A stretch of 64,000 nt of DNA from Porticoccaceae bacterium (GTDB lineage: Bacteria; Pseudomonadota; Gammaproteobacteria; Pseudomonadales; Porticoccaceae), in contig JANXGQ010000036.1 of assembly GCA_024959305.1 (NCBI GenBank), forward strand, positions 8,624-72,623, given 5' to 3'. Position 1 is the first letter of the stretch. Each line of letters begins with the position of its first letter. Positions 14,152 through 55,736 of the stretch are shown piece by piece. The notes beneath the pieces were generated by a model, which was not told where the DNA came from, searched no databases, and worked only from the letters and a program-made list of their open reading frames with translations. The translations under genes were made by a program, and so were the position numbers.

Positions 14152-14267
14152 AATTGATTTCCTAATAATAGAGGGATTTTAATCAGCGCTCGAATTGTAA
14201 CAAATCTTCCACCTCTTGGACTGCCTTTGTTAGAATAAGCGCATATAAAAAATCTCTTGGAGAGACT

Positions 14268-52071: not shown

Positions 52072-52725
52072 ATGGAAACAAATACAGTCAATTTTCAAAG
52101 CGTTACCTTTTTAATCAGCGCGCCGACTTTGCAGCAATGTCCTGACGACATTGGCTGCGAAGTGGCCTTTGCCGGGCGCTCCAATGCTGGTAAATCCAGC
52201 GCTATTAACAGCTTGACTCGCAATCGAGGTCTGGCGCGAACCAGCAAAACTCCAGGTCGCACCCAACTGATTAATCACTTTGAGATCGAACCGGGTAAAC
52301 GACTGGTTGATCTGCCCGGTTATGGCTACGCCAAAGTGCCCAAAGCCATCAAGGCTAAATGGGATCGTCACTTGGCCGAGTATCTGCAAATGCGCCGCAG
52401 TCTTGCTGGGCTGGTGCTGTTAATGGATATTCGCCATCCCCTTCAAGACTACGATCAACAGATGCTAAATTGGGCAGCTCAGGCAGGGCTACCAGTACAT
52501 ATTCTACTGACCAAAGCGGATAAACTGAAACGTGGACCAGCGAAAAATGCCCTGCTCGGCGTTGATAAGGTGCTGCGCGATATGGATCCCGGTTATACGC
52601 TATTAACTGTGCAGATTTTTTCATCCTTAAAAAAAATCGGGCTTGAAGAGCTTGAGAACCAACTGAGTACCTGGCTATGTCAGAACCCCCTATCGTCTTC
52701 CGATAACGGATCCCAGCCGATTTAG
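52072..52725 (+). CDS. engB: GTP-binding protein EngB/YihA
   Basis: [37 protein letters not shown]. Confidence 0.97.
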
Positions 52726-52757
52726 TGGAGCGGCTGACCACAGCTACATGACCATGC

Positions 52758-52795
52758 AAAAAAAAGCCCCGATCCGACAATCAGACCAGGGCTTT
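52758..52795 (-). terminator. Intrinsic terminator (minus strand)
   Basis: AAAGCCCUGGUCUGA-UUG-UCGGAUCGGGGCUUU stem running into a U8 tract. Confidence 0.88.
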
Positions 52796-52873
52796 GTTCT
52801 ACTACTACACACTACTTTGGAGAGTTTACACTTCTTATTCTCTTAGGGGGAGAATATGCAATCATTGTTTGCG
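52758..52873 (-). ncRNA. Candidate small RNA at the Spot42/ErsA locus (polA-engB interval); 5' end approximate
   Basis: SigmaE-type promoter upstream, C-rich hairpin loop (ATTCTC-CCCCTAA-GAGAAT), strong intrinsic terminator, no ORF. Confidence 0.6.
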
Positions 52874-52878
52874 AAGAT

Positions 52879-52904
52879 TTAGACAGCGTTTTTGGATTAA
52901 GTTC
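52879..52904 (-). promoter_or_regulatory. Candidate sigmaE/AlgU-type promoter
   Basis: GAACTT-N15-TCTAA on the minus strand (consensus GAACTT-N16/17-TCT[AG]A); spacer is one base short. Confidence 0.55.
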
Positions 52905-52976
52905 ACTTTTTTTTAAAAATCAGATTTTTTTTATTTTTTTGGCTAGGTCAACTCGGATTTTTATAAAAAACTCGAG

Positions 52977-55736
52977 CTAATGAGCCTGATCCCAGTTATC
53001 TCCAACACCCACATCAACCACCAATGGCACTTGCAGACTTGCGGCACTTTCCATACGTTCAGTCACGCCCACCACGACCTCGTCCAATTCCTGTTCTGGG
53101 ACCTCGAAAACCAGCTCGTCATGTACCTGCATAATCATGCGACTGTCCAATTGATTGGCCTGTAACCAATTATCGATACTGATCATAGCCAACTTAATAA
53201 TATCTGCGGCAGTCCCCTGCATAGGTGCATTAATAGCTGTGCGCTCAGCGGCCTGTCGGCGCATACCATTTCTGCTATTAATTTCCGGCAGGTACAGTCT
53301 GCGACCAAAATAGGTCTCCACATAGCCTTTTTCTGCAGCGCTGTGACGGATACTGTTCATATACTGCTGCACGCCCGGGTAGCGCTCGAAATAAAGGTCA
53401 ATATAGTCAGCGGCCTGTTTGCGGCCAATATTTAATTGGCGCGCCAATCCAAACGCCGACATACCGTAAATAAGCCCGAAATTGATTGCCTTGGCGCTGC
53501 GCCGCTGATCCGTTGTGACATTTTCTAGCCCTACACCAAATACCTCAGCAGCGGTTGCGCTGTGGATATCCCGCCCCAGTGCAAAGGCATTTAATAGGCT
53601 CTTATCGGCAGACAGATGCGCCATAATACGCAGTTCTATTTGCGAGTAATCCGCCGCCACTAGTCGGTGCCCCGGCGCGGCGATAAACGCCTGGCGCACA
53701 CGGCGTCCCTCTGCAGTTCGCACCGGAATATTTTGCAGGTTAGGATTCGAGGAGGAGAGTCTGCCAGTGGCTGTTCCCGCCTGATGGTAGGAGGTGTGAA
53801 TTCTCTTGGTGGCAGCATTAATCATAATGGGCAGCTTGTCGGTATAGGTAGATTTTAACTTGGCCAACCCGCGGTGCTCCAAGAGCACCTTTGGCAGTGG
53901 ATAGTCCAGCGCCAACTCCTGAAGCACTTCCTCTTTGGTGGAGGGGGCCCCTTTAGCAGTCTTCTTAAGTACCGGTATTTGCAACTTTTCAAATAGGATT
54001 TCCGCCAGCTGTTTTGGCGAGGCTAAGTTAAATTGTTGTCCGGCCAGATCCCAGGCTCGAGTCTCCAGTTCCGCGAGCCGTTCAGCAAGCTCCTGACTCT
54101 GTTGAAATAACAGGGTGTCATCGACCAGAGCCCCAGTGCGTTCAATCCGCGACAACACAGAGATCAAAGGTAGTTCTATATCTTCAAAAACCTGCTGCAA
54201 GCTCGACTCAGCAGCAACACGGGGCCACAGGGTCTGGTGCAGGCGCCATGTAATATCTGCATCTTCGGCGGCATAGGGGCCCGCCTGCTCCAAGGCCACC
54301 TGATTAAAGGTAAGCTGAGAGGCTCCGCTGCCGGCAACATCGGAGAAGCTGATGGTTTTACAATCCAGATAATGCTGAGCAAGGCTGTCCATATCATGCC
54401 TGGTGGCAACGCTGTTGAGCACGTAGGATTCAAGCATGGTATCAAAGGCAATGCCCTTTAATTCTATCCCATGTTGCGCCAGCACACTCATATCATATTT
54501 TAAATTTTGACCCACTTTTTTGACGCTTGGGTCTTCTAGAAGCGGCTTAAGTGCACTGAGCACAGCGTCTCTCGATAACTGCTCTGGAGCACCCAGATAG
54601 TCGTGAGCAAAGGGAATATAGGCGGCGCGCGCCGCCTCAACGGCCACAGAGACCCCCACCAGATCCGCCACCATATAATCAAGGCTGGTGGTCTCGGTGT
54701 CTACAGCGATCAGCGGGCTGTTTTGCAATTGCTCCAGCCACGCCGCAAATTGTTCAGCCGTTAGCAGCGTCTCATAATCAACCGAGATCTCTGTGCTGGG
54801 AGCAGGCGCATCGGCAACCGCAGTTTGGGAAGAGAGTAAATCTGTGATTGGCGCGCTGCGCTGATCGGCAAGCTCATTAACCCAAGTTTTAAATTCCAGC
54901 TCTTTAAAGAGGCTCAGCAAACCGTCGGTATCAGGCGGTTGATTGTGCAGCTCATCAACGGCTAGCTCCATTGCCACATCGGTCTTAATGGTGGCCAGCG
55001 TATAGGACAGATAGGCTAATTCCCTATGCTCCTCAAGTTTCCCCGCCATGGTTTTGGCGCCGCGAAATGTCAATCCTGCAACCTTATCGAGGCGCTCATA
55101 AATACTATCTAAGCCGCCTAAGCCCTGTAGCAGACCCAGAGCCGTCTTCTCTCCAACCCCCGGAACTCCAGGGATATTGTCCGATTTGTCGCCCAACAGT
55201 GCCAAATAATCGATAATCAGCTCGGGGGGTATACCAAACTTAGCGATCACCCCTTCCCTGTCCAAATGGGTATTGGTCATAGTATTTACCAAACTGATAT
55301 GCTGATTAACCAACTGCGCTATATCTTTATCGCCCGTGGAAATAATCACTGGCTGTTGCTGTTCGGTGGCCTGTACCGCCAATGTACCTATAACATCATC
55401 CGCCTCCACAGCCTCAATACTCAGTAAAGGCATACCCATAGCTCTGATAATATTATGAATAGGCTCAATCTGTTGTCGCAATTCATCGGGCATGGGGGGC
55501 CGGTTGGCCTTGTATTCACTGTAAATATCATCGCGAAAGGTCTTGCCTTTGGCATCGAAGATCACCACAGTGGTACTATCCGGATAGTCCTTTTGCAGGC
55601 GCCGCAGCATATTGATAACACCTTTGACGGCTCCAGTGGGCATGCCTTTGCTATTGGTTAAAGGAGGCAGTGCATGGAACGCCCGGTACAGGTAGGAAGA
55701 GCCATCAACAAGGATTAGGGGTGTTTTATCAGTCAT
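52977..55736 (-). CDS. polA: DNA polymerase I
   Basis: [14 protein letters not shown] 5'-3' exonuclease, DTETT 3'-5' exonuclease, [40 protein letters not shown]. Confidence 0.99.

What the first reader, a model, noticed from the sequence alone, without database searches (positions are those of the whole stretch)
52758..52904. Candidate sigmaE-dependent sRNA at the Spot42/ErsA position between polA and engB
Seen on the minus strand: GAACTT-N15-TCTAA, then about 115 nt without an ORF, ending in a long hairpin and a U8 tract. The transcript contains a hairpin with a CCCCUAA loop (52837-52855), a second anti-SD-like stretch ACUCUCCAAAG and a GU-rich run GUAGUGUGUAGUAGUAG. Established: E. coli spf (Spot 42) and Pseudomonas ErsA occupy this polA-engB interval, and ErsA is AlgU/sigma22-dependent and represses algC. 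Inference: this is a divergent, possibly undescribed lineage-specific homolog that blocks ribosome-binding sites. One weak example target is the yicC SD UUGGAGAG (14257-14264), which is complementary to CUCUCCAA over 8 nt.
Basis: partly seen in the sequence, partly recalled or inferred. Interest (0 to 1): 0.7.

Follow-up and report, generated by a model that had tools for sequence, protein, structure and literature searches.

The report
Envelope-stress small RNA beside polA
The gap between the DNA polymerase I gene and engB holds a real, conserved gene for a ~115-base regulatory RNA with an envelope-stress (sigma-E type) promoter and an exposed C-rich loop. It is an unannotated marine relative, by position and design, of Pseudomonas ErsA and Xanthomonas sX13, so it is a new member of a known kind rather than a new kind.

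Summary
The unit is a gene, not only a polA tail. A covariance model built from the transcript alone finds it in 76 of 79 genomes of the genus, and in eight further genera of the family when scored without filters. Every one of 59 copies carries (G)GAACT[TA]-N15/16-(G)TC[TA]AA ending 6 nt before the conserved 5' GCAAG. The window's own genome has a second copy (83% identical, promoter included) behind nadE. Other genomes have two to four copies, often in tandem.

The invariant RNA features are a run of at least four C that is always predicted unpaired, a second CYCC-AAG motif, and a terminator with many compensatory changes. The GU-rich run is an insertion unique to this copy, and the proposed yicC target is not distinguishable from chance.

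No Rfam family matches (Spot 42, ErsA RF01719, sX13, anti-hemB). One sister-genus copy is hit weakly by both my model and the ErsA model, and the polA-engB position is shared.

The most likely mechanism is sigma-E-induced repression of mRNAs with G-rich ribosome-binding sites. The best candidate target, a TonB-dependent receptor, has only weak support. No expression data could be obtained.

The parts
52906..52945 (-). A/T-rich stretch upstream of the -35 box; a possible UP-like element
   Evidence: T-rich then A-rich columns at -50..-36 carry some information across 59 promoters; sequence.
52899..52905 (-). -35 box TGAACTT (family consensus GGAACTT)
   Evidence: Information peak at -33..-27 over 59 promoters. 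GAACTT in 40 and GAACTA in 13 of the 53 promoters that my pattern parsed; the other 6 also show GGAACT.
52879..52884 (-). -10 box GTCTAA, 15 nt after GAACTT
   Evidence: Information peak at -13..-7. GTCTAA in 27 and GTCAAA in 15 of the 53 promoters that my pattern parsed. The spacer columns are uninformative.
52758..52872 (-). Predicted RNA, about 115 nt, starting at the conserved GCAA (5' end inferred, not mapped)
   Evidence: Full-length covariance-model match 52757-52872, 96.7 bits. Homologues in 76 of 79 genomes of the genus.
52858..52872 (-). SL1: 5' hairpin GCAA-ACAAUGA-UUGC
   Evidence: The three pairs tested form in 92% of cells but show no compensatory changes. The hairpin is predicted in most homologues.
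52837..52855 (-). SL2: AUUCUC[CCCCUAA]GAGAAU, C-rich loop at 52849-52843; proposed seed 1
   Evidence: The C-run has an unpaired probability above 0.5 in 58 of 58 homologues (median 0.98; baseline for the RNA body 0.55). It sits in a loop closed by at least 4 pairs in 32 of 53 homologues against 29% of flank-shuffled controls.
52815..52825 (-). Second conserved motif ACUCUCCAAAG (family form CYCC-AAG-YA); proposed seed 2
   Evidence: Conserved in alignments A1 and A4. Unpaired probability median 0.66, above 0.5 in 80% of homologues.
52799..52814 (-). GU-rich run; an insertion specific to this copy, probably a slippage expansion of GUAGUAG
   Evidence: Absent from the own-genome second copy and from all other homologues.
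52758..52795 (-). Rho-independent terminator (15-pair stem plus U8); it may also terminate the convergent engB
   Evidence: Of its 13 pairs, 11 show compensatory changes and 95% of cells are paired; shuffles and slid controls score far lower.
52977..55736 (-). polA (DNA polymerase I), upstream on the same strand
   Evidence: ORF. Pfam 5_3_exonuc, DNA_pol_A_exo1 and DNA_pol_A on the identical locus.
52072..52725 (+). engB/yihA GTPase, convergent; its stop codon is 32 nt from the end of the RNA
   Evidence: ORF. Pfam MMR_HSR1. Orthologues flank the RNA in 49 of 59 copies.

Best explanation
This is a gene for a trans-acting small regulatory RNA of about 115 nt. It is transcribed from its own extracytoplasmic-stress (RpoE/AlgU, sigma-E type) promoter and ended by a strong intrinsic terminator.

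It belongs to a previously unannotated RNA family. I call it 'type A' here, meaning the polA-proximal small RNA of the polA-engB gap. The family is present throughout this marine gammaproteobacterial family.

Proposed mechanism (inferred):
1. Envelope stress frees sigma-E from its anti-sigma factor.
2. Sigma-E transcribes the RNA from what is the best sigma-E promoter match in the genome.
3. The always-exposed C-rich loop (UCUCCCCCUAA) and the second CUCUCC-AAG stretch pair with G-rich ribosome-binding sites of a set of mRNAs and block their translation. This is how sX13 works in Xanthomonas, and ErsA does the same with other seeds in Pseudomonas.

The likely targets are envelope proteins. The best single candidate is a TonB-dependent outer-membrane receptor whose Shine-Dalgarno position is a conserved G4-5 run.

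Shown: conservation of the gene, conservation of the promoter motif, the terminator, the exposure of the motifs, the synteny, and the presence of rpoE-rseA-rseB and hfq.
Inferred: sigma-E dependence, the transcription start site, base-pairing, and the identity of the targets.
For: 1. It is an independent gene.
- Model R1, built from the transcript only, hits 76 of 79 genomes of the genus (55 of 55 high-quality ones) and 121 of 201 genomes of the family.
- All 59 copies examined carry the GGAACTT / TGTCtAA boxes at a fixed distance upstream, although the model holds no promoter columns.
- A second copy in the same genome (C16:17214-17362, behind bamD-nadE) keeps both promoter and terminator.
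- Tandem copies each have their own promoter.
- In genome G011 the upstream gene is not polA, yet the promoter is kept.

2. The sigma-E system is present.
- rpoE (62% identical to E. coli RpoE) is followed by rseA- and rseB-like genes, and hfq is present.
- The strict motif occurs only at the two RNA genes in 1.58 Mb.

3. The anatomy fits a base-pairing RNA.
- The C-run is unpaired in 58 of 58 homologues.
- The terminator shows compensatory changes in 11 of 13 pairs.
- There is no conserved ORF, and no downstream gene lies on this strand.

4. Position. 45 of 59 copies lie between polA and the convergent engB, which is the slot of ErsA (PMC8575079; the ErsA locus was retrieved and confirmed by RF01719 at 134 bits). 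sX13 lies 175 bp downstream of polA (PMC3771888).

5. Mechanistic precedent. sX13 uses 4C/5C loops, including UCCCCCU, against 4G motifs at translation starts (PMC3771888).

6. Candidate target. CUUAGGGGG at -18..-10 of a TonB-dependent receptor gene pairs over 9 bp with CCCCCUAAG. A G4-5 run stands at that position in 22 of 22 orthologues. Cognate pairs score slightly better than non-cognate pairs (p = 0.02-0.04).
Against: - No transcript evidence was obtained. The window is found only in DNA metagenomes. Metatranscriptome contigs cover a relative's locus, but they give no transcript ends and could include polA read-through or DNA.
- Sigma-E dependence rests on a sequence motif alone. The genome's rpoE upstream region lacks a good copy of the motif, and a relaxed motif is not enriched genome-wide (109 hits against 186 in controls), so there is no internal positive control.
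- Target prediction shows no enrichment over shuffled seeds.
- The covariation signal for the TonB-dependent receptor is weak and is confounded by relatedness.
- SL2 is predicted in only 32 of 53 homologues.
- No weak terminator separates polA from the RNA, so some of the RNA could also arise from polA read-through.
Confidence: 0.7

Rival explanations
1. The stretch is only the 3' untranslated tail and terminator of polA, and a shared bidirectional terminator for engB. The promoter-like boxes are fortuitous or non-functional.
For: No clear terminator lies between the polA stop and the RNA. A metatranscriptome contig in a relative spans the polA 3' end and the RNA (record 4). The terminator hairpin is flanked by A's and U's, so it could work in both directions.
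Against: Copies away from polA keep the promoter, body and terminator (own genome C16; 7 of 59 copies lie elsewhere; G011 has another upstream gene). Tandem copies each carry the boxes. The -35 and -10 boxes are conserved while the spacer is not. The internal motifs are conserved far beyond what a terminator needs.
Confidence: 0.05
2. It is a real small RNA, but it is transcribed by another sigma factor: the genome's second ECF sigma (C84:10413-10892) or sigma-70. It would then not be part of the envelope-stress response.
For: A second ECF sigma gene exists (28% identical to RpoE). No other promoter in this genome validates the motif. A weak sigma-70-like pair lies further upstream at 52951-52924.
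Against: GGAACTT-N15/16-TCTAA or TCAAA is the established consensus of RpoE/AlgU-type sigma factors (my knowledge of the E. coli and P. aeruginosa consensus; ErsA is sigma-22 dependent according to PMC13613067). The same motif precedes the authentic ErsA genes retrieved here. The sigma-70-like site is not conserved and is wrongly placed relative to the conserved 5' end.
Confidence: 0.1
3. It is a sigma-E-driven RNA that acts mainly by binding or titrating a protein, or as a sponge for another RNA, and not by pairing with ribosome-binding sites.
For: No target set stands out statistically. The copy number varies from one to four, as in some titrating RNAs.
Against: The conserved exposed motifs are C-rich and anti-Shine-Dalgarno-like. 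They are not the GGA motifs of CsrA/RsmA sponges. The closest characterised RNAs (sX13, ErsA) act by base-pairing (PMC3771888, PMC13613067).
Confidence: 0.1
4. It encodes a small protein (the 17-codon ORF at 52865-52812).
For: An ATG-initiated 17-codon frame exists in the window copy.
Against: There is no Shine-Dalgarno sequence. The own-genome second copy has ATA in place of ATG. Insertions and deletions between homologues are not multiples of three. Only 27 of 59 copies have any ATG ORF of 10 or more codons.
Confidence: 0.02

Closest known systems
ErsA of Pseudomonas (Rfam RF01719, Pseudomon-1/ErsA)
   Same: It lies in the polA-engB gap on the polA strand, convergent with engB. It has a GAACTT-N16-TCnnA promoter, a 5' hairpin at +1, three stem-loops, CU-rich pairing stretches and a strong terminator. 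Authentic ErsA loci were retrieved and compared here. One sister-genus copy of the window's family is hit weakly by both models.
   Different: RF01719 gives no match on the window. The ErsA core CUCCUU-GUGUUUAGUGUUGG (the U-rich domain II) is absent. In ErsA the C-rich motif sits in the terminator loop; here it sits in a separate SL2 and the terminator loop is plain. The order of the single-stranded domain and SL2 is swapped.
sX13 of Xanthomonadaceae (Rfam RF02232; PMC3771888)
   Same: It lies downstream of polA and is about 115 nt long. It has an apical C-rich loop that includes the heptamer UCCCCCU, and it is presumed to act on G-rich motifs at translation starts. sX13 accumulates under salt and heat stress.
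   Different: RF02232 gives no match. sX13 has three C-rich loops; the window RNA has one loop plus a single-stranded CUCUCC. No sigma-E-type promoter for sX13 came up in my term searches of PMC3771888. sX13 acts without Hfq; whether this RNA needs Hfq is unknown.
anti-hemB / ncS04 (Rfam RF02837)
   Same: It is a small RNA convergent with engB in other proteobacteria, according to earlier notes of this scan. The second, engB-proximal small RNA ('type B') of sister genera gives weak anti-hemB hits (21.6-21.7 bits).
   Different: There is no match on the window. Type B is absent from this genome. The window RNA is the other, polA-proximal lineage.
Spot 42 (spf, Rfam RF00021)
   Same: Same chromosomal slot (polA - RNA - engB).
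   Different: 13.6 bits against a cut-off of 80. None of 151 genomes of the order is over the cut-off, while E. coli is. Spot 42 has a CRP-repressed sigma-70 promoter (my knowledge) and different seeds.
Sigma-E-dependent small RNAs of enterobacteria and Vibrio (RybB, MicA, MicL, VrrA, MicV)
   Same: They serve as the repressing arm of the sigma-E response, and their promoters are among the strongest sigma-E promoters of the genome (my knowledge). Here the RNA genes are the only consensus matches in the genome.
   Different: There is no sequence or Rfam relation, and the seeds differ.

Membership tests
ErsA (RF01719 Pseudomon-1/ErsA) | Scores at or above the Rfam gathering cut-off (50 bits) with RF01719 | tested here: not met
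   No RF01719 hit with E of 10 or less on 52600-53100. Positive controls L180 and L182 score 134 bits. Other families of the order score 33-41 bits. A sister-genus type A copy scores 29.5 bits.
ErsA (RF01719 Pseudomon-1/ErsA) | [quoted passage not shown] | tested here: met
   (45 of 59 family copies). ErsA location as given in PMC8575079.
ErsA (RF01719 Pseudomon-1/ErsA) | Transcribed by the envelope-stress sigma factor (sigma-22/AlgU = sigma-E) | tested here: inconclusive
   The promoter motif is present and conserved and the rpoE-rseAB genes are present. Actual dependence cannot be tested with these tools.
ErsA (RF01719 Pseudomon-1/ErsA) | U-rich unstructured domain II between SL1 and SL2, used for target pairing (CUCCUU...GUGUUUAGUGUUGG) | tested here: not met
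   The core is seen in the f26, f47 and f12 loci but not in the window's family. The window's GU-rich run is a copy-specific insertion.
ErsA (RF01719 Pseudomon-1/ErsA) | Hfq-dependent action | not testable with these tools
   An hfq gene is present (72% identical to E. coli Hfq). The RNA has a U8 tail and AAGAAG/ARN-like stretches.
sX13 (RF02232) | Scores at or above the Rfam gathering cut-off (50 bits) with RF02232 | tested here: not met
   No hit with E of 10 or less. A polA-engB RNA of another family of the order (L095) scores 31.4 bits.
sX13 (RF02232) | Stable stems with apical 4C/5C loops | tested here: met
   There is one C5 loop (52849-52843). The C-run is unpaired in 58 of 58 homologues. 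Several sister genera present a second CCCC in a hairpin loop. That is fewer loops than the three of sX13.
sX13 (RF02232) | Represses mRNAs that carry 4G motifs near the translation start | tested here: inconclusive
   At most 152 of 1435 genes have GGGG at -17..-4 and at most 35 have GGGGG. The TonB-dependent receptor has a conserved G-run. There is no statistical enrichment.
Spot 42 (RF00021) | Scores at or above the Rfam gathering cut-off (80 bits) with RF00021 | tested here: not met
   13.6 bits, E 6.7. None of 151 genomes of the order is over the cut-off; the E. coli control is positive.
anti-hemB (RF02837) | Scores at or above the Rfam gathering cut-off (49.5 bits) with RF02837 | tested here: not met
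   No hit on the window. There are only weak hits on the type B RNAs of sister genera, and type B is absent from this genome.
   96.7 bits with R1 and 78.1 bits with R2. The window was one of the sequences used to build both models, so its own scores are circular; the independent support is the matches in other genomes and the promoter boxes, which the models do not contain.

The most novel reading that the evidence does not exclude
The polA-engB gap may be an ancient nursery of sigma-E-driven small RNAs with C-rich loops. In this reading ErsA, sX13, anti-hemB and this 'type A' family are diverged descendants of one or two ancestral genes, which Rfam splits or misses.

In streamlined marine genomes such as this one, these RNA genes are the only consensus sigma-E promoters. 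The envelope-stress response would then be carried out mainly post-transcriptionally, by shutting off translation of mRNAs with G-run ribosome-binding sites. Such mRNAs would include those for nutrient-uptake TonB-dependent receptors.
Probability: 0.25. Interest if true: 0.6.

Novelty: new member of a known kind. Interest (0 to 1): 0.42.

Why it matters
Small RNAs of abundant, mostly uncultured marine gammaproteobacteria are almost unknown, and this one is invisible to Rfam-based annotation.

It extends the ErsA/sX13 type of regulator (stress-sigma promoter, C-rich loop, next to polA) to a whole marine family. It also shows that sister genera carry two different such genes side by side.

In a 1.58-Mb streamlined genome it is the clearest sigma-E promoter match. 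It is therefore a ready handle for studying envelope-stress control, for example through reporters in E. coli, and for reading metatranscriptomes.

It does not reveal a new kind of mechanism.

Tried and rejected
- **Rfam.** The whole window at gathering cut-offs gave 0 hits. The region at E up to 10 gave only terminator-driven chance hits such as His_leader and PyrR.
- **Collection scan spent without result.** My one genome-contig scan went on the oligo CGAATGGCTTCTTGAGCC from PMC5819304 Table S2. Its first three bases appear to belong to the T7 promoter part of the oligo, so the scan returned only chance matches.
- **ErsA 5' end as a pattern.** A 15-mer with one mismatch over 401 genomes gave only noise. 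ErsA was found instead by anchoring on engB in large-genome families.
- **Link to ErsA by model.** Model R2 against ErsA-type loci of other families gave only marginal hits (E 0.4-0.9), so there is no direct statistical link.
- **Target prediction.** Unconstrained duplex energies were no better than for shuffled RNAs. Contiguous seed matches were not enriched, except weakly for the anti-SD-like seed 2 at 8 nt (38 genes against 18.8 +/- 8.7), as expected for any anti-SD sequence. The yicC site is therefore rejected as evidence.
- **Sigma-E regulon.** A genome-wide relaxed motif was not enriched (109 hits against 186 in controls), and the rpoE upstream region has no good match. A regulon could not be reconstructed as an internal control.
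- **RNA-seq.** No run holds the window's RNA. Logan contigs of three metatranscriptomes cover a relative's locus, but the unitig break at the promoter coincides with a strain variant and says nothing about a start site.
- **SL2 covariation.** Alignment-based covariation for SL2 failed because the helix register differs between genera. It was replaced by a per-sequence test.

Full report
**1.

On the minus strand the sequence reads T-GAACTT (52904-52899), then 15 nt, then G-TCTAA (52883-52879), then 6 nt. The RNA body begins at G52872.
- SL1 is GCAA-ACAAUGA-UUGC (52872-52858).
- SL2 is AUUCUC[CCCCUAA]GAGAAU (52855-52837).
- ACUCUCCAAAG lies at 52825-52815.
- A GU-rich run lies at 52815-52799.
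- A 15-pair terminator lies at 52795-52763, with U8 ending at 52758.

polA (919 aa, minus strand) stops at 52977 and engB (217 aa, plus strand) stops at 52725, so the two genes converge on the RNA (Pfam domains). The only frame is a 17-codon ATG ORF without a Shine-Dalgarno sequence. The genome's own second copy lacks its ATG, and the frame is not conserved.

**2. It is a gene, not just the tail of polA**

The same genome (1.58 Mb, 97 contigs, 48% G+C) holds a second copy at C16:17214-17362. It is 83% identical from the -35 box to the terminator and sits behind bamD-nadE and before a convergent gene.

I built a covariance model from eight transcripts only, with no promoter columns (R1).
- It finds full-length matches in 76 of 79 genomes of the genus (55 of 55 high-quality ones).
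- It finds matches in 121 of 201 genomes, and 11 of 20 genera, of the family.
- Scored without filters, a broader model (R2) also finds the RNA in eight further genera.
- Many genomes have two to four copies, often in tandem about 200 nt apart.

Of 59 copies examined, 45 lie between polA (same strand) and the convergent engB. Four have engB only, three have polA only and seven lie elsewhere. In genome G011 the upstream gene is not polA, yet the unit is intact.

**3. The promoter is conserved together with the RNA**

All 59 copies carry (G)GAACT[T/A] and (G)TC[T/A]AA (rare variants CCTAA, ACTAA) ending 6 nt before the conserved 5' GCAAG. The information profile has two sharp peaks, GGAACTT at -33..-27 and TGTCtAA at -13..-7. 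The spacer is uninformative, and a T/A-rich stretch lies upstream. This is the signature of selection on promoter boxes.

The boxes match the established RpoE/AlgU consensus (my knowledge). They also match the boxes in front of the authentic ErsA genes that I retrieved.

The genome encodes rpoE (62% identical to E. coli RpoE), followed by rseA- and rseB-like genes, and it encodes hfq. The strict motif occurs only twice in the genome, at the two RNA genes.

One caveat applies. A relaxed motif is not enriched, and rpoE's own upstream region has no good copy. No other promoter in this organism therefore validates the motif.

**4. Anatomy of the RNA**

The terminator is strongly supported: 11 of 13 pairs have compensatory changes, 95% of cells are paired, and shuffled and slid controls score far lower.

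The run of at least four C is predicted unpaired in 58 of 58 distinct homologues (median probability 0.98, against 0.55 for the RNA body). It sits in a hairpin loop closed by at least 4 pairs in 32 of 53 homologues, against 29% of flank-shuffled controls.

A second motif, CYCC-(A)AG-YA, is mostly unpaired. In one sister genus it is itself a CCCC hairpin loop.

**5. Relation to known families**

Rfam finds nothing in the window at gathering cut-offs. With E up to 10 it finds only chance hits driven by the terminator. Spot 42 scores 13.6 bits against a cut-off of 80, and RF01719 (ErsA), RF02232 (sX13) and RF02837 (anti-hemB) do not appear at all. Spot 42 is over its cut-off in none of 151 genomes of the order, but it is in the E. 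coli control.

I anchored on engB in 43 genomes of other families of the order. Most polA-engB gaps there hold a GAACTT-N16-TCnnA box followed by a C-rich small RNA and a terminator.

One family (f26, 6-Mb genomes) carries authentic ErsA. The 3' end is the exact reverse complement of the published oligo ErsA_Rv_EMSA (PMC5819304 Table S2), and RF01719 scores 134 bits. Two other families score 33-41 bits on RF01719, one locus scores 31 bits on sX13, and one scores 23 bits on anti-hemB. The RNAs of this slot thus lie in the twilight zone of three Rfam families.

My model R2 does not reach ErsA-type loci significantly. One sister-genus copy (L226) is hit by both R2 (E 9e-4) and RF01719 (29.5 bits, E 0.06) over the same 100 nt. 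That is a weak bridge and not proof of common descent.

**6. Architecture of the locus in the family**

Sister genera hold two different sigma-E-type RNA genes in the gap.
- Type A is polA-proximal and is the window's lineage. In some of those genera its terminator loop is C-rich, as in ErsA.
- Type B is engB-proximal. It has UCUCCCUCUUCGUUGUGAGCAA, a hairpin with a CCUCUCCCCUCUUGG loop and a GC-rich terminator. Two type B loci give weak anti-hemB hits.

The window's genome has only type A and no type B anywhere.

**7. Function**

The published analogues act by base-pairing.
- ErsA is sigma-22 dependent, needs Hfq and pairs at ribosome-binding sites (PMC13613067, PMC7264166, PMC8575079).
- sX13 lies 175 bp downstream of polA. 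It has three C-rich loops, including UCCCCCU, and represses mRNAs with 4G motifs at translation starts (PMC3771888).

By analogy I propose sigma-E-induced occlusion of G-rich ribosome-binding sites.

Target prediction in the own genome gave no statistical enrichment.

The most attractive candidate is a 980-aa TonB-dependent receptor (C58:23904). Its CUUAGGGGG at -18..-10 pairs over 9 bp with CCCCCUAAG, and 22 of 22 orthologues keep a G4-5 run at that position. The flanks co-vary in some lineages: CUUAG with CUAAG, AUUUAG with CUAAAU, CUCAGGGG with CCCCUGAG. Cognate-against-non-cognate tests are only weakly significant (p = 0.024 and 0.04) and are confounded by relatedness.

Other genes with G5 ribosome-binding sites include urtD, ureC, nuoH, nuoK, murG, queE and a small lipoprotein; bamB has GGGGAG at its ribosome-binding site.

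**8. Expression**

No RNA run holds the window. Contigs from three metatranscriptomes cover the homologous locus of a relative at depths like those of its neighbouring genes, but they give no transcript ends.

**9. Verdict**

| Statement | My estimate |
|---|---|
| It is a real, conserved small-RNA gene | about 0.9 |
| It has a sigma-E-type promoter that is used | about 0.8 |
| It acts by pairing through its C-rich loop | about 0.55 |
| The TonB-dependent receptor is a target | about 0.25 |

It is a new, Rfam-invisible member of the ErsA/sX13 kind of regulator. It is not a member of the Spot 42, ErsA, sX13 or anti-hemB families as those models define them. Earlier notes of this scan describe the same kind of element in other genomes. 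I used them as leads and tested the points I took from them.

Noticed in passing
L220-L231 (sister genera of the same family), polA-engB gaps: Most sister genera carry a second sigma-E-type small-RNA gene, 'type B', between the window-type RNA and engB. It has UCUCCCUCUUCGUUGUGAGCAA, a hairpin with a CCUCUCCCCUCUUGG loop and a GC-rich terminator. Two of these loci give weak anti-hemB hits (about 21.6 bits). Type B is absent from the window's genome.
   Followed up: partly
L177 (G351, another family of the order): Three tandem ErsA-like genes lie between polA and engB. The first two have clear GGAACTT -35 boxes and score 33-37 bits on RF01719.
   Followed up: partly
L219 (G102, sister genus g25): There are three to four tandem units of about 150 nt resembling type A, each with its own terminator. 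Only the first is preceded by a GAACT box.
   Followed up: no
L091 (G037, another family), polA-engB gap of 746 nt: Three direct repeats of about 230 nt each contain GGGAACTTGTT-GCAGAACAAGTGAAC, an inverted repeat that includes a GAACTT box. Their nature is unknown.
   Followed up: no
window 52817-52940 as seen in run X15: A related strain in a public run has a 23-nt insertion behind 52824 (RNA sense AAGUGUAAUGUAAGAAGUGUAAA, a duplication of the linker between SL2 and the second motif) and a replaced terminator region. The linker length therefore varies between strains.
   Followed up: no
own genome C84:10413-10892 and C84:10894 (outside the window): A second ECF sigma gene (28% identical to RpoE) is followed by a 106-aa membrane protein, probably its anti-sigma factor. 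The ribosome-binding site of that gene (CUUUGGAG) matches the RNA's second motif over 8 nt.
   Followed up: no
own genome C58:23904 (outside the window) and L186-L206: A TonB-dependent receptor gene uses a G4-5 run as its Shine-Dalgarno element in all 22 orthologues examined. In the own genome at most 35 of 1435 genes have GGGGG at that position.
   Followed up: partly
own genome C55:17089-17643 (outside the window): The nadB / rpoE-rseA-rseB arrangement is intact, but the rpoE upstream region lacks a consensus sigma-E box. The best match is GAAATA-N15-GTCAAA.
   Followed up: partly
L071 (G534, family f21): A clear type A homologue (50.7 bits; TGAACTT-N16-GTCTGA) lies about 6 kb from engB in a 5.3-Mb genome of another family. 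The lineage therefore reaches beyond the window's family.
   Followed up: partly
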